Positions 2,049 through 30,037 of a stretch of 32,000 bases of DNA are shown here, in pieces. Each line of letters begins with the position of its first letter. Position 1 is the stretch's first letter. Below the pieces are notes generated by a model, which was not told the origin of the DNA, searched no databases, and saw only the letters and a list, made by a program, of their open reading frames with translations. Source of the DNA: Candidatus Hadarchaeota archaeon (GTDB lineage Archaea; Hadarchaeota; Hadarchaeia; Hadarchaeales; Hadarchaeaceae); NCBI GenBank assembly GCA_964514965.1, contig CAZETV010000001.1, positions 120,001 to 152,000 of the forward strand, in the 5' to 3' direction. Both the position numbers and the translations under genes were made by a program.

Positions 2049-3263
2049 ATGATTAGATTAGGCTTAGAAGTTTTTTTAAAGAGTAACGTAAGTTTAATTG
2101 AAGGTAAAAAAGTTGGTCTATTAACTAATCAAACTGGCATTGACAACGATTTTAACAGTATTATAGACTTATTTTACAATAATCCGAGAATTAAATTGAC
2201 AGCTATTTTTGCTCCAGAGCATGGAATACACAATGAACACCAAGCTGGAATCGGCTTCCAATCTTATGTGGATAAGAGGTATAACATTCCGGTTTTTAGT
2301 CTTTATAGATCATCTGTAAAATATTTGTCACTAACTTCTAGAAATCTAGATGAATGCATGCGTCTTGATGTATACAGTGTAGGTAAATCACCTACACATA
2401 AAATGATGGAGGCTATAGACGTATTAGTTTTTGACATACAGGATGTTGGTACACGAGTTTACACACATATCTGGACTATGGCGTTATGCATGAGAATATG
2501 CGCTAAAAAAGGTGTTTCTTTTATTGTTCTGGATAGACCAAACCCAATAAATGGCGTAACCATGGAGGGGTTTGTTCTCAACTATCCAAAGAATAGTTCA
2601 TTCATTGGATTATATCCTATACCTTTGAGGCATGGCATGACGGTTGGAGAGCTCGCTAGATTTTTTAATGGAGAATTTCTTGACAATAAGGTGGACTCAA
2701 AAGCTATACCCATGGAGGGATGGAAGAGGAAAATGTGGTATAGTAACACTTCCTTGCCATGGATTATGCCTTCACCAAATGTGCCTACCTTAGATAGTGC
2801 TACAGTTTACCCTGGACAAGTACTTTTTGAGGGCACTAACGTCTCTGAAGGCAGAGGGACTACTAAACCATTTGAGATAACTGGGGCACCATGGATAGAT
2901 GGCTTCAAATTGTCGAAAAAAATTAATGCTTACAAGTTTCCTGGAGTAAAATGCAGAGAAGTGTATTTTGTGCCATCATTTTCAAAATACAAGGGTAGGC
3001 TTTGTAACGGTGTACAGATACATGTTACAGATAAAACTAAGTACAAACCTTTTGAATTTGCGTTAAATTTAATCAAAACGATAATGGAGATGTATCCGGA
3101 TCGATTTAGTTTTCATGAAAATTACTTTGATATGGTCGTGGGAAATTCAAAAGTGAGGGAGATGCTGCTAAAAAATATTGGAGTCGATGAGATACTTCAA
3201 AGTTCTCAAGAAGACCTAATCAAGTTTTCAGAACTGAGGAGAGAATATTTACTTTACAGCTAA
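2049..3263 (+). CDS. DUF1343 family protein (YbbC/NamZ-like exo-beta-N-acetylmuramidase family)
   Basis: 404 aa. Family motifs KVGLLTNQTGID, FAPEHG, FDIQDVGTRVYTH, VLDRPNP, MPSPNVP and EGTNVSEGRGT. No signal peptide is visible. Confidence 0.8.
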   Translation: MIRLGLEVFLKSNVSLIEGKKVGLLTNQTGIDNDFNSIIDLFYNNPRIKLTAIFAPEHGIHNEHQAGIGFQSYVDKRYNIPVFSLYRSSVKYLSLTSRNLDECMRLDVYSVGKSPTHKMMEAIDVLVFDIQDVGTRVYTHIWTMALCMRICAKKGVSFIVLDRPNPINGVTMEGFVLNYPKNSSFIGLYPIPLRHGMTVGELARFFNGEFLDNKVDSKAIPMEGWKRKMWYSNTSLPWIMPSPNVPTLDSATVYPGQVLFEGTNVSEGRGTTKPFEITGAPWIDGFKLSKKINAYKFPGVKCREVYFVPSFSKYKGRLCNGVQIHVTDKTKYKPFEFALNLIKTIMEMYPDRFSFHENYFDMVVGNSKVREMLLKNIGVDEILQSSQEDLIKFSELRREYLLYS

Positions 3264-3286
3264 GTCATGGAGATGAGGAAGATAAC

Positions 3287-5329
3287 GTGGGAAGTAGTAT
3301 TCTTAAACTTCTTAAGTTATCTCCTTCAGCTCAGTCTGTAGACTATGTTAGAAGAAAAAAACAATTCCAGTTGCATAGACTTCTTACAGAACAACGCCAT
3401 CCAAAAACTTGGGACATGAGTTTCAAGATAAAATCTGATACTCTAGAAGGTTTAAGAAAAATACTGTCTGTGGACGAGGAAATATCCAACAAGATAATGG
3501 TACTTTCTAAAAAGCCTAAGCTGGTTATTCAAGCAGTAAACGCGGTTGCAAAAGCAATAGTCAAAGGCAAAAAAATTTACATTTATGGGTGTGGTTCTAC
3601 TGGAAGACTCGCAAAACAAATAGAAAGTGCGCTTTGGAAACCCTTTTGGAGACAGTTGAAGAGCAGCATGCTCTGGGAGAAACTAAAAAATTTCCTGCCT
3701 AGTGATATAGAAGAACATCTTATTGGGGAAATGACTGGGGGAGACAGAGCATTGGTAAGTGCTTTAGAAGGACTAGAGGATTTACAATTGATTGGATATC
3801 TTCAACTTATTGATAATAAAATAAAAAAAGGTGACGTTCTCTTTGCGATAACGGAAGGAGGAGAAACCTCGTCCGTTATAGGGTTTATACAAAGGGCATT
3901 GAAATTGTATGGCAAAATAACTTCTCAAAAAAAGAATGAAATTAAAAAGAAGCTTTATTTTATCTACAACAATCCAAATGAAGTTCTCAAATTGATAAAG
4001 CGTAGCAGAATAGTTTTAGAAAATAAAAGCATTACCAAAATTAATCTTACCACAGGATCCCAAGCTATAGCTGGTTCAACTCGAGCGCAGGCCACTACGA
4101 TAGACACCTATGTAATGGGTGTAATAATCGAAGAGGCGATATATAAAGTTCTGCGGGTTTTTTTGACAAAAGATGAACTTTCCCTCGTTGGCTTCAGAAA
4201 TAGAACTCTATCACAGAGATTGAAAGATTTTGTACATATCCCGAAGACAATATTTAATCTAATAAACGACATCGCCCCATTTACTGAATTAGAGGCGAAA
4301 GTTTACAAAAATCATCATTTTTCAATCTACCTTGCTAAAAAAGCTTTGTTTCCAATTTTTATAGATGTAGCTGAAAGGAGCCCGACTTTTAAACTTGATC
4401 CGTTAGATACTGTGAAAGTGCCGAGAAAAAGTTGGGTTCAAGTCTGGACACCAGTAACCGACTACAGGGAAGCATGGAAAGTGTTGCTAGAGCGTCGGTT
4501 TAAAGGCTTAAATCCTCCATTTTATAAAGCTCATGTTTCAAAAAAAGTTAGAGATAAATTCCTTCGACATACAGCACTTAACAGTCTAAACAAAGTAGGA
4601 CAGAACCAGGAGGCTCTTTATGATTTTTCATTTTCTAAATATAACATAGAGAAGCATCCTCCCAGAAAAGGAGATTTAAGTGTGATGATATGTGTTGACG
4701 AAGAAATAGATGAGCTACTAAATCCTTCCTCATCCTTTAGAAGTTTCCTCTCGCTCTGTAAAAAGAATAGGTCTAACGTGGCTCTCCTTTTAATTACAGA
4801 AAAACAACGTGATGAACTCGTGCTTTTAAGATCAAATATTGGAGACTTAGACCAAGATGACCACATCATAGTGCTCACGATGAATAGAAAAGATGATCCT
4901 CTTAATCTCAGGAGACACATCGCTCTTAAAATGGTGCTTAACGCACATTCCACAGCGGTAATGGCTAAACTTAGCAGAGTGTTAGGAAATACGATGGTAA
5001 ATGTTAATCCTAGCAATCTTAAACTCATTGGTCGATCCACATTCTTGATTTTGAGTCATGTAAACGATATAATAAATCGGAACGAATGGAAAAACAAATA
5101 TGGGAAGACAAAACCTGTTAAATATACTGATGCTAATGCGATTCTTTTTAGCGCCATGCGTTTTGTTAGAAAGTTAGAAAAAACTGGTCAAACTCCAGAA
5201 GTACCATTGTGTATAATCAGGGTACTTGAAGCACTACGACAAGAGAAGTGCATCAGCTGGGAGGAGACCTTTTTCATCTTGGAGAACGAGGGTTTTGAGA
5301 ATTATCTTCAACGTGTGTTAAGTTCATAA
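3287..5329 (+). CDS. Two-SIS-domain MurQ (MurNAc-6-P etherase) / glucokinase-regulatory-protein (GKRP)-like protein
   Basis: 680 aa with a GTG start. The N-terminal half matches MurQ/GKRP: LLTEQRHPKT, YGCGSTGRLA, MTGGDRALVSALEGLEDL, ITEGGETSSVIG, AGSTRAQATT. The second half has IDVAERSPTF (compare MurQ LDASECPPTF). The C-terminal cap motif is ALKMVLNAHSTAVMAKLSRVLGNTMVNVNPSNLKLIGRS (compare MurQ KAGTAQKLVLNMLST..GKVYxNLMVDVxxTNxKL). Confidence 0.7.
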   Translation: MGSSILKLLKLSPSAQSVDYVRRKKQFQLHRLLTEQRHPKTWDMSFKIKSDTLEGLRKILSVDEEISNKIMVLSKKPKLVIQAVNAVAKAIVKGKKIYIYGCGSTGRLAKQIESALWKPFWRQLKSSMLWEKLKNFLPSDIEEHLIGEMTGGDRALVSALEGLEDLQLIGYLQLIDNKIKKGDVLFAITEGGETSSVIGFIQRALKLYGKITSQKKNEIKKKLYFIYNNPNEVLKLIKRSRIVLENKSITKINLTTGSQAIAGSTRAQATTIDTYVMGVIIEEAIYKVLRVFLTKDELSLVGFRNRTLSQRLKDFVHIPKTIFNLINDIAPFTELEAKVYKNHHFSIYLAKKALFPIFIDVAERSPTFKLDPLDTVKVPRKSWVQVWTPVTDYREAWKVLLERRFKGLNPPFYKAHVSKKVRDKFLRHTALNSLNKVGQNQEALYDFSFSKYNIEKHPPRKGDLSVMICVDEEIDELLNPSSSFRSFLSLCKKNRSNVALLLITEKQRDELVLLRSNIGDLDQDDHIIVLTMNRKDDPLNLRRHIALKMVLNAHSTAVMAKLSRVLGNTMVNVNPSNLKLIGRSTFLILSHVNDIINRNEWKNKYGKTKPVKYTDANAILFSAMRFVRKLEKTGQTPEVPLCIIRVLEALRQEKCISWEETFFILENEGFENYLQRVLSS

Positions 5330-5536
5330 CAGCGGATTTTATTTCTAATACTGTATTGTTGACAAAATATAATGGGGTGGATGGGCCAAGGGAAAGACCG
5401 CATGAGCTGGGAAGATTTAGACAATAAGTTTGTTGGTTTTGCAGCAAAGACTCTTAATACTCAACTGAATTACTTAGTTTGAGTAATTGAAAAACCTTAA
5501 ATTTCATTAGAAGGTGTTAGCACTTGGTTTAACGAG

Positions 5537-6709
5537 GTGATATTTTTGGGCGGCGGTGCTGAAGCTGAAGTTAAAAATTCTAGAATGTCTGTGGGATGTG
5601 TTCTGAGGCATGGTAATCTAGAGGACGTCGGGATGGATCCCAGCCGCCTTAGGGAAGCAAGTGCATTCATCAAGAAGGCCATTTCCGAAAAAGCTTTTCC
5701 CGGCGCTGTTTTCTTGGTGGCACGTAACGGCGTGATAGTGGCACACGAAGCTTTTGGGGAGGCAGTATCAATACCCGCGGAACTTTCTAAACCTATGAAG
5801 TTAGATACCATTTTCGATACTGGGTCGGTGACTAAACCGGTGGCCACAGCAACATCCTTGATGATTCTACTCGAAAAAGGAAAGGTTTTGCTGGACGACC
5901 CCGTAAACTTCTATATTCCAGAGTACACTGGAGATGGGAAGGAAAAAACAACATTGCGCAATTTGTTAACACACACAGCCGGTATCACCGATCCAATTCA
6001 GCTATTTAAGAGGTGTAAAACTAGGGAAGATTTTCTAAGAGAAATATGCTGGATGAAGCTAGGATGTCCTCCCGGTAGTAGGGTCATTTACAGTTGTTTA
6101 GGTTTTATCTTATTGGCTTTCATCATAGAGAAAGTTGCAGGTGAGAGTCTAGCATCCTTTTCCAGACGAGAAATTTTTTCACCCTTGAGCATGAAGGATA
6201 CCCTCTTCACTCCTCCGGAAAAGTTGAGGGATAGAATCGCGGCGACTGAGAGATGTAGCTGGCGAGGGCGTATTATCATCGGGGAGGTTCACGACGAAAA
6301 CGCTTTTGGCATGGGTGGAGTAAGTGGCAATGCTGGACTTTTCTCCACCGCCCAAGACCTCGCTATCTTCGGCCAAGCATTCCTCAATATGGGAGCGTAT
6401 GGGCACAAAAGAATCCTCAGCTCCGCGACCGTTGAGTTGATGACCAAGAACCACACAGTAGGACTGGAAGAGCCTAGGGGTTTAGGGTGGGCTCTAAAGT
6501 CGGAGAAAGGACCCCAAGCTGGCGAATTGTTGTCCCCATTGACTTTTGGGCATACTGGTTTCCCGGGAGTTTCTCTATGGGTCGACCCAGCGAACAAACT
6601 TATCACGATCCTTATGACGAATAGGGTTCATCCCACTAGGGAGAACGAAGCAATTCTTCGAGTCAGACCACTATTCCATAATATCATTGCTTCCTCGATC
6701 ACTGGCTAG
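5537..6709 (+). CDS. Serine hydrolase, beta-lactamase/PBP (class C-like) family; possible AmiE-like muropeptide amidase
   Basis: SxxK motif in FDTGSVTKPVA, a YSx motif (IYSCLGF) and HTG in FGHTGFPG. The start is ambiguous: GTG 5537 in the ORF track, or in-frame TTG 5546 lying 5 nt after a GAGGTGA Shine-Dalgarno site (5534-5540). Confidence 0.8.
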   Translation: MIFLGGGAEAEVKNSRMSVGCVLRHGNLEDVGMDPSRLREASAFIKKAISEKAFPGAVFLVARNGVIVAHEAFGEAVSIPAELSKPMKLDTIFDTGSVTKPVATATSLMILLEKGKVLLDDPVNFYIPEYTGDGKEKTTLRNLLTHTAGITDPIQLFKRCKTREDFLREICWMKLGCPPGSRVIYSCLGFILLAFIIEKVAGESLASFSRREIFSPLSMKDTLFTPPEKLRDRIAATERCSWRGRIIIGEVHDENAFGMGGVSGNAGLFSTAQDLAIFGQAFLNMGAYGHKRILSSATVELMTKNHTVGLEEPRGLGWALKSEKGPQAGELLSPLTFGHTGFPGVSLWVDPANKLITILMTNRVHPTRENEAILRVRPLFHNIIASSITG

Positions 6710-6801
6710 GAGTTAGGTCATTACAGGATTTTCTCACTGAAAAACATGCCATTCATCTAGCTCAAAAATTGCTGGGTCAATACATATGAATTCTTCTCTA
6801 A

Positions 6802-6831
6802 AAAGAACGCTCAAACTTTCGAAAAGTATCT
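6802..6831. repeat. Right copy of the direct repeat (AAAGAACG-N7-TTTCGAAAAGTATCT)
   Basis: 15-mer at 6817-6831 and 8-mer at 6802-6809. It overlaps the stop codon of the ROK gene. Confidence 0.5.
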
Positions 6832-7861
6832 AACTATGCGTGTATATGAATACCAGTTTTGCTGCCCCATACAACGAGGCATTGGGCCCCAGCGACGAAG
6901 GCGCTATCTTTATTTCCTTATCTTTAATTTTCTTGACTAAGTAAGGCTGTGAATAAAGCTCCACAATTTCGTTTATGCGGTTCATCAGTAAGTCAGCGGA
7001 CTGCCCTACTCCGCCTCCGATGATGACCACTTCCGGGGCTAGGGTGCTGATGAGGTTTGACACAACAATGCCCATATATGTCGCGGTTTCTCGGACAATT
7101 TTTAGGGCGAGCGGGTCACTCTTCCTTGCGGCCTCAAATACCAATTTAGATGTTACGGCGTCAATCTTATTATTCACCATATCCATCAAAATCGTTTTAG
7201 ATCCTTTACGTATTTCTTCAACAGTTCTTCTAGCGATGCCCGTGCCAGAGCAGAGACTTTCAAAACATCCCTCGCCATAAATTTTGTCCATGAAGCTAGG
7301 CCCAAGCAACATCCACCCTATTGAGCCTGCGAGCTTCCCAACTCCATCGTACGGTTTTTCGTCAACGAGTATGCTGCCACCTATGCCCGTCCCCAGAATG
7401 ATGTAAATCGCATTTTTCGCCCCGCGAGCAGCACCTACCCATTGTTCTCCGAGCACCGGTGTAACGTGGTCGTGCACTGCGAATATTGGGAGCGAAGTAC
7501 CGAGATTTTTTTGTAGAAAGTTCTTTAGTGTCGAACCTTGTATTTGCGGGATGTTCGGTGCCCATGCAATTTTATCGTCATATTTTTCCACAAGTGTTGC
7601 ACACGCGATACCGATCCCCTTGATTTTTAACCCACTTGCTTTTGATTGATTCATTACTTTTTTAGTTAATTTTGCTATTTGGGAAAACATCGCGTCTATT
7701 GTACCTTTTTTAGTAGTCGGCTCTTCGACACGGAAAATAATTTTGCCATTTGAACTCATAAGCGCCGAAGCAATTTTTGTGCCGCCGATATCAACTCCTA
7801 TCGCATACGATTCTCTAGCTGGCTTCGTATTCTTGTGGAGTGCCGCTCTTTTTGGCATCAT
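6830..7861 (-). CDS. ROK family sugar kinase (glucokinase / N-acetylhexosamine kinase-like); no N-terminal HTH
   Basis: 343 aa. ATPase phosphate-1 motif AIGVDIGGTKIA, ILGTGIGGS and VVIIGGGV. The ROK Cys motif is degenerate (GEGCFESLCSG). Confidence 0.8.
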   Translation of the reverse strand: MMPKRAALHKNTKPARESYAIGVDIGGTKIASALMSSNGKIIFRVEEPTTKKGTIDAMFSQIAKLTKKVMNQSKASGLKIKGIGIACATLVEKYDDKIAWAPNIPQIQGSTLKNFLQKNLGTSLPIFAVHDHVTPVLGEQWVGAARGAKNAIYIILGTGIGGSILVDEKPYDGVGKLAGSIGWMLLGPSFMDKIYGEGCFESLCSGTGIARRTVEEIRKGSKTILMDMVNNKIDAVTSKLVFEAARKSDPLALKIVRETATYMGIVVSNLISTLAPEVVIIGGGVGQSADLLMNRINEIVELYSQPYLVKKIKDKEIKIAPSSLGPNASLYGAAKLVFIYTHS

Positions 7862-9157: not shown

Positions 9158-9991
9158 TTGAATAGCAGTTGCGGCGTTAAAGCCGGAAGCCTCGGCGATG
9201 AGATCAAGCTCATCATCAGAGGCGACGATATGGGATTTTGTCATAGTGCCAATTTAGCTTTTGAAAAAACTTGTAAGGAGGGAATTTTGACTTCGGCTGA
9301 GATAATGGTTCCGCCTCCTTGGTTCAATGAATCAGTCGAGATGGCAAGAAAAAACCCGAAGCTTGACATCGGAGTGCACTTGGTTCTGACCAGCGAATGG
9401 CAGCTCTACTCCTGGGGGCCAGTATTACCAGCATCTGAGGTGCCCAGTTTGGTTGATAAAGATGGTCATTTCTTCTCGTCTAAGCGTTCCTTCTTGGCGG
9501 CTAGACCGAAACCGGCTGAAGTCGAAAAAGAACTCAGAGCTCAGATTGAACTGGCGCTGAAAAAAGGCTTGAATGTTTCGCATTTATCTAGCCATATGTT
9601 CGCGACAAAATTTACTCCTAAACTGAAAATGATTACGAAGAAACTTTCCGCAGAGTATAAATTACCCATCTCTGGTGATATGGGAGAAAAACGTGGCGAA
9701 TGGTTCCCCATCTATGATGTCCCGCCTAAAAAGAAAGAAAATGTCTTAACAAGTATTCTTAAGAAACTCACCCCTGGCCTCTGGATGATTGGCACTCATC
9801 CAGGATTGAATACTCCCGAAATGAAGGCGATGAAAACGGTGGACCCCCGTGGGCTTAAACAAGTTGCTGCTCATCGGGCAGCAGTCACCAAGGCTTTGAC
9901 CAGCAGAAGGGCTAAACAGATAATAAAAAACAGGAAAATAAAATTGGTAAGTTATCGTGACATACATTTCTGTGATTCAAAAAAAGTCTAA
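9158..9991 (+). CDS. YdjC/ChbG family carbohydrate (chitooligosaccharide-type) deacetylase
   Basis: 277 aa. N-terminal LIIRGDDMGFCHSAN (family DDxG motif), DIGVHLVLTSEW and HLSSHM. TTG start preceded by GAGGAGG. Confidence 0.75.
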   Translation: MNSSCGVKAGSLGDEIKLIIRGDDMGFCHSANLAFEKTCKEGILTSAEIMVPPPWFNESVEMARKNPKLDIGVHLVLTSEWQLYSWGPVLPASEVPSLVDKDGHFFSSKRSFLAARPKPAEVEKELRAQIELALKKGLNVSHLSSHMFATKFTPKLKMITKKLSAEYKLPISGDMGEKRGEWFPIYDVPPKKKENVLTSILKKLTPGLWMIGTHPGLNTPEMKAMKTVDPRGLKQVAAHRAAVTKALTSRRAKQIIKNRKIKLVSYRDIHFCDSKKV

Positions 9992-10030
9992 AATGGTGAC
10001 ACTATACAATTTAAATTTCCAGGATTTTTT

Positions 10031-11293
10031 TTGTGGGGGACAAGTACCTCTGCCCATCAGGTAGAGGGAAACAACAGGAACAATCAGTGGTGGAAGTGGG
10101 AAAAAGAAGTTGGTTTAGAGGAATCAGGAATAGCTTGTGATCACTACAACAAATATAGAGAGGATATCGATTTAATGGCGGAGCTGGGCTACAACGCATA
10201 TCGTTTTTCCATCGAATGGAGCCGCGTAGAGCCCAAAAAAAGACAATTTGATGAAAAGGAAATCGAGCACTACAGAGACGTGATAAATTACATGAAAGAA
10301 AAAGGCATCAAACCGATACCCGTACTACACCACTACACGAACCCCTTATGGTTCATGAACGAAGGAGGATGGATCAAAGAAAAGAACGTTGAGTATTTCA
10401 TCGAGTTCGTGAGGAAAATTGTGGATGAGTTTGAGTTTGACTACTGGCTGACAATAGACGAGCCTATGGTGTATGCTTTTAGCTCATGTTTGGATGACAA
10501 GACTCCCCCAGCTTACTTGGTAAACAATAATTGGCCTCAACGAGAAAAAAGTTTTAAAATGGTTTTTAAGGTGGCTTCAAATCTCCTGCAGGCTCACGCC
10601 AAGTCCTACGAGACAATTCACGAGCATTCTAGGGGCAAGGTAAGTCTAGCAAAGGCGGTGAATATCCTTGAGCCAGCTTCGGGTTCTTCGTTGGACAGGT
10701 GGTCAACAGGCATGTGGGATTACATGGAAAATGGTGTGTTGTTGCAATCCCTGAAGGAAGGCAGACCGTTACCTCCGCTTTCAGGGGAAGAGTTCGGCGA
10801 GGTTCTCGATTTCTTCGGTCTTAATTATTTTTTGGGGCGGGTGTGCTACTTCGAGGAAAGTTCTCCAACTCCGCCTTGGTACTTTTTCCAGACCAAGGCA
10901 AAGGGAGGGGGTGAGGTTAACTCAATGGGGTGGTGGGTATACCCGGAGGGAATTTACAAGGCAATAAAAAGAGTTCATGAGATGTTTGGCCTACCGATAA
11001 TGGTTACTTCGAATGGGATAGGGACAGAGGATGACCTACAGAGGAGGAGATTCTTGGGCAGCCACTTGAAGCAGATTAGGAAAGGCATAGACAACGGGGC
11101 GGACGTAATAGGTTATCTACATTGGAGTTTCATGGACAACTTCGAATGGGCCGAGGGATTTGAACCCAAGTTCGGCCTGGTGGAGGTGGATTACAGTAAT
11201 CTTAAAAGAATACCTAGAAAGAGCGCATACATGTACGGTGAAATTGTCAAAAAGAATGGGATAGGCCCAGAGTTAGAGAAGAAATATCTATAA
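10031..11293 (+). CDS. Glycoside hydrolase family 1-like protein with altered catalytic motifs (TIDEP, VTSNG); start uncertain
   Basis: GH1 motifs: LWGTSTSAHQVEG, ACDHYNKYREDI, YRFSIEWSR, GGW, GLNYF, GWWVYPEG and HWSFMDNFEWAEGFEPKFGLVEVDY. The acid/base motif reads TIDEP rather than T(L/F)NEP. The nucleophile motif reads VTSNG rather than (I/V)TENG. Confidence 0.85.
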   Translation: MWGTSTSAHQVEGNNRNNQWWKWEKEVGLEESGIACDHYNKYREDIDLMAELGYNAYRFSIEWSRVEPKKRQFDEKEIEHYRDVINYMKEKGIKPIPVLHHYTNPLWFMNEGGWIKEKNVEYFIEFVRKIVDEFEFDYWLTIDEPMVYAFSSCLDDKTPPAYLVNNNWPQREKSFKMVFKVASNLLQAHAKSYETIHEHSRGKVSLAKAVNILEPASGSSLDRWSTGMWDYMENGVLLQSLKEGRPLPPLSGEEFGEVLDFFGLNYFLGRVCYFEESSPTPPWYFFQTKAKGGGEVNSMGWWVYPEGIYKAIKRVHEMFGLPIMVTSNGIGTEDDLQRRRFLGSHLKQIRKGIDNGADVIGYLHWSFMDNFEWAEGFEPKFGLVEVDYSNLKRIPRKSAYMYGEIVKKNGIGPELEKKYL

Positions 11294-28046: not shown

Positions 28047-29057
28047 TTATTTTAGTTCTGCTGGACTTAGATATTCTCTAACTTTTTTCGTCGCACTCAC
28101 AATTACTTGAAGTTTACCAATCGTTTCTTCTTGTGTTCGCGTCTTGAATCCGCAGTCGGGGTCGATCCAGAGCTGCTCGGGCTTTAAAACATCAAGGGCA
28201 CGCCGAATGCGATGCTCAACCGTTGCCGTGTTTTCGACTACATGCGAATGCACGTCCACCACCCCAAACGAGAGGTCCTTGGTGAAGGGGTGCTCTCGGA
28301 ACAGATCTACCAAGTCAAACTCGGAGTTCGACATCTCGAGGTCGAAGTTGTCAACTGGGAGCTTCAGCATCTCGGGGTAAATGAACTCGAAAGCTCCGTA
28401 ACAGATGTGGTTGATGAAATATGCATCAACACCTTCCGTCACGATTTTCATCGCCTCGATAGCGAATTCCGAAAGTTCCTCGGGCCTCGCCGAAATTGCA
28501 GGCTCGTCGATTTGGATTATTTTCGCTCCCGCTTTCGCCAGCGCTTTAACCTCTTCGTGCAACGCTTTCGCCAGCGCCAGACAGGCTTCTCGGCGACTCG
28601 GGTAGTATTCGTTGAACGACCAGTCCATCATTGTGTAAGGCCCCGTGACCATTCCCTTGACAGGTTTGCTGGTGAGTTCTTGGGCAAATCGCCACCAGTC
28701 CACTGTAATCGGCCTCTGCCACTTTACCTCGCTCGTGATGATCGGTTTTCGGTAGTAGCGGTTGCCATAGCTCCTAACGAGTCCGCTTATTTTGAAGCCA
28801 TCTAAGTTGTTCGCGAAGTACGTTACCATATCTCCTCGGTAAATCTCCCCGTCAACAAGCAAATCCAACCCCACCTTTTCCTGAATCTCAATCCACTCGC
28901 GCGTGACCCGCTCTTCGAGTTTTTTGAGTTCTTCGGCGGTCAACTTTTGGTCAGCGAATTTTCGTCTGGCATCGATTAGGTAGAGTGGCTTAGGAAGACT
29001 CCCGACAGTTGTGGTTGGCAGGAGGGGCAGCTTCAGGTTAAGATGTTCCAACTGCAT
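28047..29057 (-). CDS. metE: Cobalamin-independent methionine synthase, catalytic (C-terminal barrel-like) protein
   Basis: TTTVGSLPKP, zinc ligand context HICYG and IDPDCGFKTR. I trimmed the start to ATG 29057, which overlaps the upstream stop (TAATG). Confidence 0.85.
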   Translation of the reverse strand: MQLEHLNLKLPLLPTTTVGSLPKPLYLIDARRKFADQKLTAEELKKLEERVTREWIEIQEKVGLDLLVDGEIYRGDMVTYFANNLDGFKISGLVRSYGNRYYRKPIITSEVKWQRPITVDWWRFAQELTSKPVKGMVTGPYTMMDWSFNEYYPSRREACLALAKALHEEVKALAKAGAKIIQIDEPAISARPEELSEFAIEAMKIVTEGVDAYFINHICYGAFEFIYPEMLKLPVDNFDLEMSNSEFDLVDLFREHPFTKDLSFGVVDVHSHVVENTATVEHRIRRALDVLKPEQLWIDPDCGFKTRTQEETIGKLQVIVSATKKVREYLSPAELK

Positions 29058-30037
29058 TATATCAGCTCCCTTGCATTTTCGGCAATCGACGCCATGTTTT
29101 GAATTTTCTTGAATGCGACCTCCCTGGACAGGTAGTCGCCCAGCCCACATGAAGGATTGAGATAAACACACTTACTTTTGATGGCTGGCAAAATTAACTT
29201 TAAGACATTCATAACTTCATTTTCCCGTTCGAGTCTGGTGTTCCGCCCATCGATGAGCCCTACCCCGAGTTCCTTATCGCAACCAAAACGGGCAATTGCG
29301 TCAGGCAGTTTCGGGCTATAGGTGAAGTCTAAGCCGAGCACATCCACAGGGAGTTTGAGGAGTTTTTGGTAAAGAGGCATCGCGTCGCCAAAATACATGT
29401 AGAGAGCAACTCTTGCGTCGCCTTTTTCGGCCACGATTTTTTGGATAATCTTTTCGAAAACTTGAAAATCGGTCGGGTTTTTCAAGATAGCGGGTTCGTC
29501 AATCTGGATGAGTTCGGCCCCTGCTTCAGCGAGGTCTCGAACCTCTTGAGAGATCACCGAAGCAAATTCATCCACGAGCGGTTGGAACCCATCGCCGCGA
29601 CGGTTGATAGATAGCCTCGCAAGCGTGTAGGGTCCTGTCACCACGGGTTTCACGGATTTTGAAATTCCTCTCGCGAAAGTAAATTCACGTTTCAGAACAG
29701 ATTCGTGCTTTACAAGCTTGCCTCTGATGATTGGCTGGCGGAAGTAAAAATTCGTATCGAAAAACCTTAGTAAACCGTTAATTTCACAACCTTCCAACTT
29801 TCTAACAAAGTGAGAAATTGGATCGTGCCACCGTACTTGGCCGTCAGTTACCACATCCAGCCCGGCCCGCACTTGCTCTTCGATAACCCCTCGTGTTACT
29901 TCGTCCTGTACTCGCTCGAATTCTTCATCGGAAATTCCCCCGCGCTCATGCTGCGCGTAGGCTTGCCGATGCTGTTGCTGTTCTGGACGGTCACCTATCC
30001 GGGGATAGCTACTAGTACTTGCACTTAGGAGTTTCAT
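29057..30037 (-). CDS. MetE N-terminal-barrel-like protein (methionine synthase paralog lacking the His/Cys zinc pair)
   Basis: 326 aa and clearly paralogous to the downstream gene (VTDGQVRW, VTGPYT, IQIDEPA). It has YMYFGDA where the partner has HICYGAF. Confidence 0.75.
   Translation of the reverse strand: MKLLSASTSSYPRIGDRPEQQQHRQAYAQHERGGISDEEFERVQDEVTRGVIEEQVRAGLDVVTDGQVRWHDPISHFVRKLEGCEINGLLRFFDTNFYFRQPIIRGKLVKHESVLKREFTFARGISKSVKPVVTGPYTLARLSINRRGDGFQPLVDEFASVISQEVRDLAEAGAELIQIDEPAILKNPTDFQVFEKIIQKIVAEKGDARVALYMYFGDAMPLYQKLLKLPVDVLGLDFTYSPKLPDAIARFGCDKELGVGLIDGRNTRLERENEVMNVLKLILPAIKSKCVYLNPSCGLGDYLSREVAFKKIQNMASIAENARELI

What the first reader, a model, noticed from the sequence alone, without database searches (positions are those of the whole stretch)
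10031..11293. GH1 glycosidase with intact sugar pocket but nucleophile Glu->Ser (VTSNG) and NEP->DEP: possible substrate-assisted or non-hydrolytic GH1
Compared by eye with GH1 enzymes such as Sulfolobus LacS and Thermotoga BglA, the glycone-pocket motifs are conserved: QVEG, CDHYNKY, YRFSIEWSR, HHY, GWWVYPEG and WSFMDNFEWAEG. The two catalytic motifs are changed. The acid/base motif T(L/F)NEP is TIDEP (Asp143-Glu144, codons 10457-10462). The nucleophile motif (I/V)TENG is VTSNG (Ser327, TCG at 11009-11011). TCG is at least 2 substitutions from GAA/GAG, so a single base-call error cannot explain it. An adjacent Asp-Glu pair with no enzyme nucleophile is the arrangement of 2-acetamido-assisted hexosaminidases (the GH20 D-E pair, and analogously GH18/GH84). 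In GH1 the Asn of NEP contacts the substrate C2 substituent. The gene follows a YdjC/ChbG-like deacetylase inside an amino-sugar cluster. My inference is a GH1 scaffold repurposed for GlcNAc or GlcN beta-glycosides, with Asp143 reading a C2 acetamido or amino group. Alternatives are a natural glycosynthase/transglycosidase-like enzyme, or a sugar-binding pseudoenzyme like the Klotho domains. I know of no characterised GH1 with this motif pair.
Basis: partly seen in the sequence, partly recalled or inferred. Interest (0 to 1): 0.8.

Follow-up and report, generated by a model that had tools for sequence, protein, structure and literature searches.

The report
Natural GH1 glycosidase lacking its nucleophile
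A small group of archaeal enzymes from a very well-studied sugar-cleaving family has replaced the residue normally needed for catalysis, in the same way that protein engineers once turned such an enzyme into one that cleaves N-acetylglucosamine, so it is probably a naturally evolved new kind of amino-sugar-cleaving enzyme.

Summary
ORF 10031-11293 is a GH1 protein, closest to P. horikoshii BGPh (1VFF). It has Asp143-Glu144 in place of N-E-P and Ser327 in place of the nucleophile Glu. I add a third change: Phe267 replaces the Tyr that hydrogen-bonds the nucleophile.

This is not gene decay. All 19 members of a monophyletic archaeal clade (49-100% identity; Hadarchaeota/Hadesarchaea, MSBL1, Haloarculaceae MAGs) carry Ser, using all four TCN codons, and Phe. 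Fifteen carry Asp; a derived subclade carries Ala or Pro. The acid/base Glu and seven other checked pocket residues are invariant; the QxEG Gln varies in two members. dN/dS is 0.07-0.14. All 101 sister GH1s keep N/E/Y/E.

Clade genes sit beside amino-sugar genes (YdjC, PIG-L, CE4, NagB, NamZ, kinases) far more often than canonical GH1 genes do: 5-6 of 12 contexts against 1 of 106.

D143 and S327 align to N163 and E338 of Thermus TtβGly. As I recall its abstract, the N163D/E338G mutant became a substrate-assisted β-N-acetylglucosaminidase.

Best reading (about 0.55): a natural substrate-assisted GH1 β-N-acetylhexosaminidase. Rivals are an exo-glucosaminidase, an inverting or non-hydrolytic enzyme, or a pseudoenzyme. 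There is no biochemical evidence. I found no natural precedent in the searched literature.

The parts
10004..11293 (+). GH1-family gene without a nucleophile ('GH1-S'). It is called from TTG 10031 (420 aa), but probably starts at ATA 10004 (429 aa, MQFKFPGFFLWG...).
   Evidence: ORF. Pfam GH1 E 3.3e-82. 1VFF E 2e-100. AF2 pLDDT 88.6 (420 aa) and 93.1 (429 aa). Foldseek TM 0.87 to 1VFF.
9995..10006 (+). Shine-Dalgarno-like GGTGA (9995-9999), then ATA (10004-10006) at the position where sister genes have ATG.
   Evidence: L012 and L093 have ATG at this position, L092 has ATA, and L094 has ATT where its sister L095 has ATG. GGTGA-type motifs occur upstream of other genes in the window.
10457..10462 (+). 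Asp143 (GAC) and Glu144 (GAG). Asp replaces the 2-OH-binding Asn of the NEP motif. Glu144 is the retained acid/base.
   Evidence: In the clade this position is D in 15, A in 3 and P in 1. Glu is 19/19. Canonical sisters have N and E in 101/101.
10829..10831 (+). Phe267 (TTT) at the position of the catalytic Tyr that hydrogen-bonds the nucleophile (TmBglA Y295, TtβGly Y284).
   Evidence: F in 19/19 clade members against Y in 101/101 canonical sisters.
11009..11011 (+). Ser327 (TCG) at the catalytic nucleophile position (TmBglA E351, TtβGly E338).
   Evidence: S in 19/19. Codons TCG, TCT, TCC and TCA are all used across clade loci.
11144..11149 (+). Glu372-Trp373 (the NFEW motif), retained glycone O4/O6-binding residues.
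   Evidence: invariant in both the clade and the canonical sisters. A retained Glu argues for a non-phosphorylated glycone.
9158..9991 (+). YdjC-family carbohydrate deacetylase directly upstream on the same strand.
   Evidence: Pfam PF04794 E 7e-49. NCBIfam carbohydrate / chitin-disaccharide deacetylase models hit below their cut-offs. A 78%-identical YdjC lies next to the clade member in L009.
2049..3263 (+). NamZ-family exo-β-N-acetylmuramidase homologue.
   Evidence: Pfam NamZ_N and NamZ_C, E 1e-77 and 5e-55.
3287..5329 (+). MurNAc-6-phosphate etherase (MurQ)-like SIS protein, 680 aa, with the homology split by an insertion of about 250 aa.
   Evidence: hits below the curated cut-offs.
5537..6709 (+). 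β-lactamase-fold serine hydrolase, PBP4B-like. From my own knowledge this is the same family as B. subtilis AmiE/YbbE; that was not tested here.
   Evidence: Pfam PF00144 E 3e-65. NCBIfam PBP4B E 1e-56, below cut-off.
6830..7861 (-). ROK-family sugar kinase.

Best explanation
The gene encodes a cytoplasmic GH1-fold exo-β-glycosidase that has given up the family's enzyme nucleophile. It most likely cleaves β-linked N-acetylhexosaminides (GlcNAc, possibly GalNAc) by substrate-assisted catalysis.

Proposed mechanism, all of it inferred. The sugar sits in the unchanged GH1 -1 pocket (His101, Asn265, Trp301, Trp365, Glu372, Trp373 and usually Gln10). Glu144 protonates the leaving group. The substrate's own 2-acetamido oxygen attacks C1 from the space vacated by Glu->Ser327 and Tyr->Phe267, forming an oxazoline/oxazolinium intermediate. 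Asp143, at the position of the Asn that normally binds the 2-OH, hydrogen-bonds and polarises the acetamido N-H, as the Asp of the GH20 D-E pair does. Glu144 then activates water, giving net retention.

In the cell the enzyme would release GlcNAc from imported disaccharides or oligosaccharides, such as chitobiose or GlcNAc-MurNAc. The released sugar would feed neighbouring deacetylases (YdjC, PIG-L), kinases and NagB. In this window it would fill the NagZ-like step of a NamZ/MurQ/AmiE-like peptidoglycan-sugar salvage cluster.

What is shown: the substitutions, their conservation, purifying selection, the intact fold and the amino-sugar neighbourhood. What is inferred: the substrate and the chemistry.
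For: (1) Three residues around the nucleophile site are replaced together and only there: N->D/A/P, Y->F, E->S. The acid/base Glu and 7 other checked pocket residues are invariant in 19/19; Q10 varies in 2 members.
(2) Ser is kept through all four TCN codons. dN/dS is 0.07-0.14. The clade is monophyletic in 50/50 bootstraps without the signature columns.
(3) All 101 sister sequences have N/E/Y/E. In a profile search of 1.84 billion representatives, the D/A/P-E-F-S signature occurs only in this clade among the best 150 hits.
(4) Neighbourhoods: YdjC (window, L009, L096), PIG-L plus NagB (L006/7, L008), NagB plus an Opp-type ABC importer (L093, L176-178), CE4 and GH9 (L009), and a BadF-type kinase plus SIS plus GatZ/KbaZ (L092). 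That is 5-6 of 12 distinct clade contexts against 1 of 106 canonical GH1 loci of at least 8 kb, Fisher p 2.6e-5 to 1.9e-6.
(5) D143 and S327 align with N163 and E338 of TtβGly. N163 is confirmed as the NEP Asn (PMC12366256). E338G is confirmed as the nucleophile/glycosynthase mutant (PMC9875253). From my recollection of the abstract of Andre-Miral et al. 2015 (the reference is confirmed, the full text is not held), N163D/E338G, and N163A alone, gave that GH1 β-N-acetylglucosaminidase activity, with turnover of NAG-oxazoline.
(6) The clade-specific changes make the site smaller and more hydrophobic (F267, F/L319, A209, Y/W102) and add no new basic residue. This suits an acetamido methyl group and does not suit phosphate or NH3+.
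(7) The window's MurNAc-salvage-like cluster has no GH3, GH20 or GH84 GlcNAcase in 32 kb.
(8) The AF2 models are confident and GH1-like.
Against: There is no biochemical data on any clade member. Asp143 is Ala or Pro in 4 of 19 members (a derived subclade), so the polarising Asp is dispensable there, or those members do something else. Adjacency to deacetylases also fits the archaeal Dac-then-GlmA logic, in which the glycosidase acts on GlcN-GlcNAc after deacetylation. The Hadesarchaea locus (SBP-NagB-GH1-ABC) has no deacetylase at all. Half of the contexts (haloarchaeal, MSBL1, L010, L094) carry no amino-sugar genes. Substrate-assisted enzymes of GH18 and GH20 use a Tyr to position the acetamido oxygen, whereas here a Tyr was lost. 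I could not inspect model coordinates or dock ligands. The key details of the engineering precedent rest on my memory of an abstract.
Confidence: 0.55

Rival explanations
1. Exo-β-D-glucosaminidase. The neighbouring deacetylase (YdjC or PIG-L) first converts chitobiose to GlcN-GlcNAc, as Dac does in Thermococcales. The GH1 then removes the GlcN. Asp143 would recognise the 2-NH3+ group, and a water molecule in the Glu->Ser cavity would attack C1, probably with inversion and with Asp143 as the base.
For: The gene lies immediately next to PIG-L (L006/7, L008) or YdjC (window, L009, L096), and next to NagB. This is the same gene order logic as the Dac/GlmA pathway, which I cite from my own knowledge. 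Asn->Asp is the change one would expect for binding an amine. The L177 locus has NagB and an importer but no deacetylase.
Against: To my knowledge, all known exo-glucosaminidases (GH2, GH9, GH35) keep two catalytic carboxylates. Removing a carboxylate and a Tyr next to a cationic 2-NH3+ substrate should hurt catalysis, not help it. The pocket became more hydrophobic. The Ala/Pro subclade has neither an amine-binding residue nor a base. There is no experimental precedent, whereas the GlcNAc route has one.
Confidence: 0.17
2. Non-hydrolytic glycosyl transfer. The enzyme would be a natural 'glycosynthase-like' catalyst or an inverting phosphorylase. The nucleophile cavity would bind phosphate or an α-configured activated donor (a sugar-1-phosphate or NDP-sugar), and Glu144 would act as acid/base.
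For: Glu->Ser at the nucleophile is one of the classic glycosynthase mutations; Gly, Ser and Ala are the effective ones (PMC8819650). The strict retention of Ser rather than Gly or Ala (19/19) suggests the hydroxyl group does something.
Against: No new conserved Arg, Lys or His appears near the site to bind phosphate. No phosphomutase or sugar-1-phosphate genes are seen in the neighbourhoods, and an aldose 1-epimerase in L176-178 suggests free reducing sugar. Catabolic operon contexts argue for degradation.
Confidence: 0.08
3. An inverting, or otherwise rewired, β-glucosidase/galactosidase acting on ordinary neutral glycosides. Asp143 would be the general base for a water molecule in the enlarged cavity. 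A variant of this idea is Ser327 activated by Asp143 as a novel nucleophile.
For: The O3/O4/O6-binding residues are unchanged. Some contexts contain GH42, GH31 or GH9 genes or plain sugar ABC transporters and no amino-sugar genes.
Against: This does not explain the loss of the 2-OH-binding Asn or the amino-sugar enrichment. The Ala/Pro subclade lacks the proposed base. A glycosyl-serine acetal would be a poor intermediate, and to my knowledge there is no precedent in clan GH-A.
Confidence: 0.08
4. A catalytically dead sugar-binding protein (pseudoenzyme), like the Klotho or LPH-type GH1 domains that lack one catalytic Glu. It might act as a sensor or chaperone for amino-sugar oligosaccharides.
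For: Loss of a catalytic Glu defines such domains. Eukaryotic multi-domain GH1 proteins with Gly at the nucleophile position turned up in the profile search. Three clade genes have weak ATA or ATT start codons.
Against: The acid/base Glu144 is invariant, Ser is fixed, and dN/dS is about 0.1. These are single-domain cytoplasmic proteins sitting inside catabolic operons between importers and downstream enzymes. The coordinated three-residue change looks adaptive rather than degenerative.
Confidence: 0.07

Closest known systems
Pyrococcus horikoshii β-glycosidase BGPh (PDB 1VFF) and the BGPh-like archaeal/bacterial GH1 subfamily
   Same: It is the closest solved relative: phmmer E 2e-100, full-length alignment, about 41-43% identity, Foldseek TM 0.87. 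It has the same (β/α)8 fold, the same length and the same glycone-pocket motifs.
   Different: BGPh and all 101 sister sequences have N-E-P, the NYY Tyr and E-N-G. The window protein and its clade have D/A/P-E-P, NYF and S-N-G.
Engineered Thermus thermophilus TtβGly N163D/E338G (Andre-Miral et al. 2015, Glycobiology 25:394-402)
   Same: The same two positions are changed in the same fold: NEP Asn->Asp and nucleophile Glu->small residue. D143 aligns to N163 and S327 to E338. As I recall the abstract, the mutant hydrolyses GlcNAc glycosides and NAG-oxazoline by substrate assistance, and N163A alone also gives GlcNAcase activity. That parallels the natural Asp and Ala variants.
   Different: It is a laboratory construct and only about 30% identical. 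It has Gly rather than Ser at the nucleophile position and keeps Tyr284, whereas the natural clade has Phe. Its details are from memory: the reference is confirmed but the text was not retrievable.
GH20 / GH84 / GH18 substrate-assisted N-acetylhexosaminidases and chitinases
   Same: The proposed chemistry is the same. There is no enzyme nucleophile, the substrate acetamido group acts as nucleophile, and an adjacent carboxylate pair (the D-E of GH20) follows β-strand 4 of a TIM barrel (background in PMC10570127, and PMC7014002).
   Different: There is no sequence homology: Pfam reports only GH1 and a weak GH5 match. The H-x-G-G D-E signature is absent. Clan GH-A is different from clan GH-K. No Tyr is positioned to hold the acetamido oxygen.
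Thermococcales Dac / GlmA chitobiose pathway (PIG-L deacetylase plus GH35 exo-β-glucosaminidase)
   Same: The operon logic is similar: Opp/Dpp-type ABC importer, PIG-L deacetylase, glycosidase and GlcN-6-P deaminase sit side by side.
   Different: To my knowledge GlmA is a GH35 enzyme with both catalytic carboxylates. Here the glycosidase is a GH1 without a nucleophile.
Klotho / LPH-type degenerate GH1 domains and myrosinases
   Same: They are also GH1 members that depart from the two-Glu rule. The myrosinase exception is noted in PMC6522968, and degenerate eukaryotic domains were seen.
   Different: Myrosinases lose the acid/base, not the nucleophile. Klotho/LPH domains are eukaryotic and multi-domain, have Gly/Ala/Asn substitutions and lack the coupled N->D and Y->F changes.

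Membership tests
GH1 (Pfam PF00232, clan GH-A) | Significant match to the family HMM over the full length | tested here: met
   PF00232 E 3.3e-82, 276.8 bits against a cut-off of 22.6. 194 PDB GH1 sequences match at E<=1e-3.
GH1 (Pfam PF00232, clan GH-A) | (β/α)8 barrel fold superposable on solved GH1 structures | tested here: met
   AF2 pLDDT 88.6 and 93.1, pTM 0.91 and 0.93. Foldseek top hit 1VFF with TM 0.87, followed by T. maritima BglA entries.
GH1 (Pfam PF00232, clan GH-A) | Acid/base Glu in the N-E-P motif after β4 | tested here: inconclusive
   Glu144 is present and invariant (19/19). The preceding Asn is Asp here and D/A/P across the clade. So this feature is half met.
GH1 (Pfam PF00232, clan GH-A) | Catalytic nucleophile Glu in (I/V)TENG after β7 | tested here: not met
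   Ser327 occupies this position in three independent alignments. Ser is found in 19/19 clade members and Glu in 101/101 sisters.
GH1 (Pfam PF00232, clan GH-A) | Tyr (second Y of NYY) hydrogen-bonded to the nucleophile | tested here: not met
   Phe267: F in 19/19 against Y in 101/101. Numbering was checked against TmBglA Y295 and TtβGly Y284.
GH1 (Pfam PF00232, clan GH-A) | Retaining double displacement through a covalent glycosyl-enzyme intermediate | not testable with these tools
   This needs kinetics, trapping with 2-fluoro sugars, and NMR.
Substrate-assisted β-N-acetylhexosaminidases (GH20/GH84-type mechanism) | No enzyme nucleophile, with an adjacent polarising Asp and an acid/base Glu/Asp | tested here: met
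   D143-E144 together with Ser at the nucleophile site. The Asp is present in 15/19 clade members and is Ala or Pro in 4.
Substrate-assisted β-N-acetylhexosaminidases (GH20/GH84-type mechanism) | Sequence homology to GH20, GH84, GH18 or GH85 | tested here: not met
   The Pfam scan returns only GH1 and a weak GH5 match. The NCBIfam scan returns GH1-type models plus one marginal endoglycoceramidase hit at E 0.0065.
Substrate-assisted β-N-acetylhexosaminidases (GH20/GH84-type mechanism) | Hydrolysis of β-GlcNAc/GalNAc glycosides via an oxazoline intermediate, and inhibition by NAG-thiazoline | not testable with these tools
   This requires enzyme assays.
Engineered GH1 GlcNAcase (TtβGly N163D/E338G) | Substitutions at the NEP-Asn and nucleophile-Glu positions of a GH1 barrel | tested here: met
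   The recalled TtβGly sequence is identical to 1UG6 over 431/431 residues. BLASTP aligns D143-N163 and S327-E338.
Exo-β-D-glucosaminidase (GlmA-like role after a deacetylase) | Genomic pairing with a chitobiose/GlcNAc deacetylase and a GlcN-6-P deaminase | tested here: met
   YdjC (window, L009, L096), PIG-L plus NagB (L006/7, L008), NagB (L093, L176-178). This pairing is not specific to GlcN over GlcNAc.
Exo-β-D-glucosaminidase (GlmA-like role after a deacetylase) | Two catalytic carboxylates, as in the known GH2, GH9 and GH35 enzymes | tested here: not met
   Only Glu144 remains, plus Asp143 in most members.
Glycosynthase / glycoside phosphorylase-like | A phosphate- or leaving-group-binding basic residue in the vacated nucleophile site | tested here: not met
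   No clade-specific conserved basic residue lies near the active-site motifs. K116 and R339 lie outside them by sequence position. Coordinates were not inspected.

The most novel reading that the evidence does not exclude
This would be the first naturally evolved GH1 (and, to my knowledge, the first clan GH-A) glycosidase that has dispensed with its enzyme nucleophile and works by neighbouring-group participation of a 2-acetamido substrate. It would be an archaeal β-N-acetylhexosaminidase that independently arrived at the same two-residue solution (NEP Asn->Asp, nucleophile Glu->small residue) that protein engineers designed into Thermus TtβGly. It would supply the missing GlcNAc-releasing step in chitin and peptidoglycan sugar scavenging by Hadarchaeota-type archaea.
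Probability: 0.5. Interest if true: 0.8.

Novelty: new variant of a known kind. Interest (0 to 1): 0.72.

Why it matters
GH1 is one of the best-studied glycosidase families. A review-level statement says its -1 subsite residues, including the NEP Asn and the nucleophile Glu, are conserved in more than 5,000 members, with myrosinases as the known mechanistic exception (PMC6522968).

A conserved, selected clade that has swapped out the nucleophile, its partner Tyr and the 2-OH-binding Asn would show three things. First, a catalytic mechanism can change naturally within a family. Second, nature used the route that rational 'mechanism engineering' predicted. Third, GH1 should be added to the families that can hold β-N-acetylhexosaminidases, or some other new activity.

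In practice these proteins are annotated as 'β-glucosidase' or 'GH1 family protein'. Metabolic reconstructions of Hadarchaeota, MSBL1 and haloarchaeal MAGs would therefore mis-assign cellobiose use and miss amino-sugar, chitin or murein scavenging. A nucleophile-free GH1 from a lineage often found in hot subsurface habitats could also be a useful transglycosylation catalyst with oxazoline donors.

Tried and rejected
(1) Frameshift or sequencing error in the 8-T run at 10025-10032, joining the out-of-frame ATG at 9993. I rejected this. The in-frame upstream peptide (IQFKFPGFF) matches homologues, and two other clade genes also have ATA or ATT at the start position.

(2) Pseudogene or decay. I rejected this on dN/dS of 0.07-0.14, synonymous variation at the Ser codon, and clade-wide conservation.

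(3) A displaced nucleophile elsewhere in the sequence. The only new clade-specific acidic positions are 135 and 275. By sequence position and model secondary structure, both lie outside the β4 and β7 catalytic loops. Coordinates could not be inspected.

(4) A compensating acidic residue in the Ala/Pro subclade. There are too many lineage-specific differences to single one out.

(5) A search for more clade members. The GTDB genome scan gave 1 (L012). The metagenome scan gave 2 truncated ones (L096, L097). A second protein search seeded with the haloarchaeal member gave none that were new. At 50% identity the whole clade collapses to a single representative.

(6) Full text of Andre-Miral et al. 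2015. It is not held. Searches for N163D and E338G gave only glycosynthase uses.

(7) Literature searches for a natural GH1 GlcNAcase or a nucleophile-less GH1 returned nothing relevant. The library covers open-access papers only.

(8) NamZ co-occurrence as a general rule. NamZ is found only in this window.
Full report
OBSERVATION. It matches Pfam GH1 at E 3.3e-82. Its best solved relative is the Pyrococcus horikoshii β-glycosidase 1VFF (E 2e-100). The residue-by-residue HMMER alignment puts TIDEP on TFNEP and VTSNG on ITENG. The codons are as stated: GAC/GAG at 10457-10462 and TCG at 11009-11011. I checked the columns in two more ways. The first was a 120-sequence MAFFT alignment to which I added T. 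maritima BglA. My recalled BglA sequence reproduces the published numbering Q20/H121/N165/E166/Y295/E351/W398/E405/W406. The second was a BLASTP alignment to Thermus thermophilus TtβGly. My recalled TtβGly sequence is 431/431 identical to PDB 1UG6. All alignments agree: D143 = NEP Asn, E144 = acid/base, S327 = nucleophile. F267 sits at the position of the second Tyr of the NYY motif, TmBglA Y295; from my own knowledge this is the catalytic Tyr that hydrogen-bonds the nucleophile.

NOT A SINGLETON, NOT DECAY. A search of 5.8 billion protein clusters returned 19 clusters at 49-100% identity, followed by a gap down to 44% or less. All 19 have Ser at the nucleophile column and Phe at the Tyr column. 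Fifteen have Asp at the Asn column, three have Ala and one has Pro. All 101 remaining hits have N, E, Y, E. With the three signature columns removed, the 19 form a monophyletic group in 50/50 NJ bootstraps. In a rooted subtree, D-E-F-S is the state of the deepest branches, and the Ala/Pro forms are a single derived subclade. Pairwise Nei-Gojobori dN/dS for pairs that gave a finite dS is 0.07-0.14. The Ser codon varies synonymously among loci (TCG, TCT, TCC, TCA), so Ser itself is under selection. A clade-profile HMM search of 1.84 billion 50%-identity representatives found the signature only in this clade among the best 150 hits. The other nucleophile-less hits are eukaryotic multi-domain LPH/Klotho-like proteins and one Ala variant that keeps NEP and Tyr. 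A second search seeded with the haloarchaeal member found no further members. Named members come from Hadesarchaea/Hadarchaeota MAGs, an MSBL1 single-cell genome and a Haloarculaceae MAG. The window's closest relatives (79-81% identity) come from Hadarchaeota/Hadesarchaea assemblies.

WHAT IS KEPT AND WHAT IS LOST. Invariant in the clade are the equivalents of H121, E166 (acid/base), N293, W324, W398, E405, W406 and F414. Q20 is kept in 15 of the 17 members that cover it. Residues of this set (Q18, H150, W151, N205, W425, E432, W433, E387) are the ones described for the Sulfolobus enzyme as contacting the glycone and as conserved in more than 5,000 GH1s (PMC6522968). The changes fall exactly on the three side chains that surround the α-face of C1 and the C2 substituent: N165, Y295 and E351. 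There are also secondary shifts towards hydrophobic residues (N/H209->A/V, Y319->F/L, F102->Y/W) and a Pro-Pro insertion at 281-282. No new conserved basic residue and no plausible replacement carboxylate appears near the catalytic motifs. AlphaFold models are confident (pLDDT 88.6 for 420 aa and 93.1 for 429 aa; pTM 0.91 and 0.93) and superpose on 1VFF and T. maritima BglA with TM 0.87-0.88. I could not access the model coordinates, so all statements about geometry rest on homology.

GENOMIC CONTEXT. In the window the gene follows a YdjC deacetylase (9158-9991). It lies 4-8 kb downstream of NamZ (2049-3263), a MurQ-like SIS protein (3287-5329), a PBP4B-like β-lactamase-fold hydrolase (5537-6709) and a ROK kinase (6830-7861, minus strand). 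From my own knowledge, these are the components of bacterial MurNAc/GlcNAc salvage (the B. subtilis NagZ-AmiE-NamZ-MurQ pathway) except for the β-N-acetylglucosaminidase. No GH3, GH20 or GH84 gene occurs in the 32 kb.

The other clade loci look as follows:
- Hadarchaeota L009/L012: YdjC (divergent), a CE4 deacetylase, an AraA-like isomerase and GH9.
- L092: a sugar ABC transporter, a BadF-type kinase, a two-SIS-domain protein and GatZ/KbaZ.
- Hadesarchaea L093/L176-178: SBP_bac_5, NagB, the GH1, two permeases and two ATPases.
- L006/7 and L008: a ROK regulator, GFO/IDH/MocA, DegT, a ceramidase-like protein, PIG-L, the GH1 and NagB, plus ABC importers.
- L097: SIS_2 and GH42.
- L010/11: a sugar ABC transporter only.
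- L094, L095/L005, L001 and L003: uninformative.

As a control, I ran tblastn with the same deacetylase, NagB and NamZ queries. It found such a neighbour in 1 of 106 canonical GH1 loci of at least 8 kb, against 5-6 of 12 distinct clade contexts (Fisher p 2.6e-5 to 1.9e-6). Two caveats apply: the clade contexts are phylogenetically related, and archaeal queries are less sensitive on bacterial loci.

MECHANISM. The most economical reading is substrate-assisted hydrolysis of β-N-acetylhexosaminides. Removing Glu and the Tyr hydroxyl makes room under C1 for the substrate's acetamido carbonyl. Asn->Asp converts the 2-OH hydrogen-bond partner into an acceptor for the acetamido N-H, the role of the Asp in the GH20 D-E pair. 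Glu144 stays as acid/base. This is inference, but there is an experimental precedent in the same fold. Andre-Miral et al. (Glycobiology 2015, 25:394-402) is confirmed as a reference, but its text is not held. As I recall the abstract, docking GlcNAc into TtβGly showed clashes with N163 and E338. N163A, and the double mutant N163D/E338G, then acquired β-N-acetylglucosaminidase activity, and the double mutant processed NAG-oxazoline. Independent sources confirm that N163 is the NEP Asn (PMC12366256) and that E338G is the nucleophile (glycosynthase) mutant (PMC9875253). My alignment places D143 and S327 on those two residues. The natural Ala/Pro subclade parallels the N163A result. It suggests that steric relief at C2 is the essential part and that Asp is an enhancer.

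RIVALS. (a) Exo-β-glucosaminidase acting after deacetylation, following the Thermococcales Dac/GlmA logic. Context cannot exclude this, and the L177 locus has no deacetylase. However, losing a carboxylate next to a cationic substrate, the more hydrophobic pocket and the Ala/Pro variants all argue against it, and there is no precedent. (b) Glycosynthase- or phosphorylase-like chemistry. Ser is a classic glycosynthase substitution, but no phosphate-binding residues and no sugar-1-phosphate genes are seen. (c) An inverting or Ser-nucleophile enzyme acting on neutral sugars. This does not explain the amino-sugar enrichment. (d) A pseudoenzyme. This is hard to reconcile with the invariant acid/base, the fixed Ser, dN/dS of about 0.1 and the catabolic operon positions.

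COMPARISON AND NOVELTY. By sequence and fold this is a GH1 member. By the family's mechanistic hallmarks (nucleophile Glu, its Tyr, NEP Asn) it is not a canonical one. Under the favoured reading it would work like GH20/GH84 enzymes without being related to them. Its closest functional analogue would be a laboratory mutant. Seven literature searches of the held open-access corpus found no natural GH1 of this kind. Subscription papers are not covered, so prior description cannot be excluded. I rate it a new variant of a known kind, with high but not top interest, because the chemistry is still unproven.

SIDE OBSERVATIONS. The gene probably starts at ATA 10004, not TTG 10031. The in-frame upstream peptide QFKFPGFF matches the conserved GH1 N-terminus. 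A GGTGA Shine-Dalgarno-like motif precedes it. L092 (ATA) and L094 (ATT) have near-cognate codons exactly where their sisters have ATG. The 429-aa model has a well-ordered N-terminus. A bacterial-type murein-sugar salvage cluster in an apparently archaeal genome is also noteworthy.

Noticed in passing
window 9995-10033; L092 about 150-180; L094 about 7085-7117: Three clade genes have no ATG, GTG or TTG before the conserved KFPxGF N-terminus. At the position where sister genes have ATG they carry ATA (window, L092) or ATT (L094), preceded by a conserved GGTGA Shine-Dalgarno-like motif. Gene callers therefore start at the internal TTG ('LWG') and truncate the protein by 9-10 residues. This may reflect near-cognate initiation or deliberately low expression.
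   Followed up: partly
window 2049-7861: A bacterial-style MurNAc/peptidoglycan sugar salvage set sits in what appears to be a Hadarchaeota-type archaeal genome: NamZ, a MurQ-like protein, a PBP4B-like serine hydrolase and a ROK kinase. The window also carries F420-dependent LLM and MptE-like genes. This suggests that the archaeon scavenges bacterial cell-wall sugars.
   Followed up: partly
window 3287-5329: The 680-aa MurQ-like protein matches MurNAc-6-P etherase models in separate pieces (residues about 143-290 and about 545-590). This implies an insertion of about 250 aa and an N-terminal extension. All scores are below the curated cut-offs, so it may not be a true etherase.
   Followed up: no
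L014 (Thermococcus sp. JdFR-02): This is the only canonical (N/E/Y/E) GH1 locus out of 106 with a PIG-L deacetylase homologue within 10 kb. A canonical BGPh-like GH1 next to a Dac-like gene could mark the ancestral context from which the Ser clade arose.
   Followed up: no
P0141 (529 aa): A single-domain GH1 representative has Ala at the nucleophile column but keeps NEP and the catalytic Tyr (signature QHNEYAWEW). It is a different and isolated kind of nucleophile loss, or possibly a sequencing error.
   Followed up: no
P0002, P0003 (81% and 80% identical to the window protein): The otherwise conserved Gln of the QxEG motif (glycone O3/O4 contact) is His in P0002 and Asn in P0003. This hints at further tuning of the -1 subsite within the clade.
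   Followed up: no
L006/L007 5330-9034; L008 1016-4908: The clade gene is embedded with a conserved trio of unclear role: a GFO/IDH/MocA oxidoreductase, a DegT-type aminotransferase and a neutral-ceramidase-like protein. PIG-L and NagB are alongside. This may be a pathway for an unusual amino sugar or glycolipid head group.
   Followed up: no
window 28047-30037 (-): Two consecutive ORFs with MetE-like (Meth_synt_2) domains overlap by about 115 nt in the longest-ORF calls.
   Followed up: no
L009 4278-5636; L092 4410-5750: A 446-452-aa AraA-like/sulfoquinovose-isomerase-like protein lies beside or near the clade gene in two different loci: directly downstream in L009/L012, and about 3 kb downstream in L092. 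The match is weak, and it may be an aldose-ketose isomerase for the released sugar.
   Followed up: no
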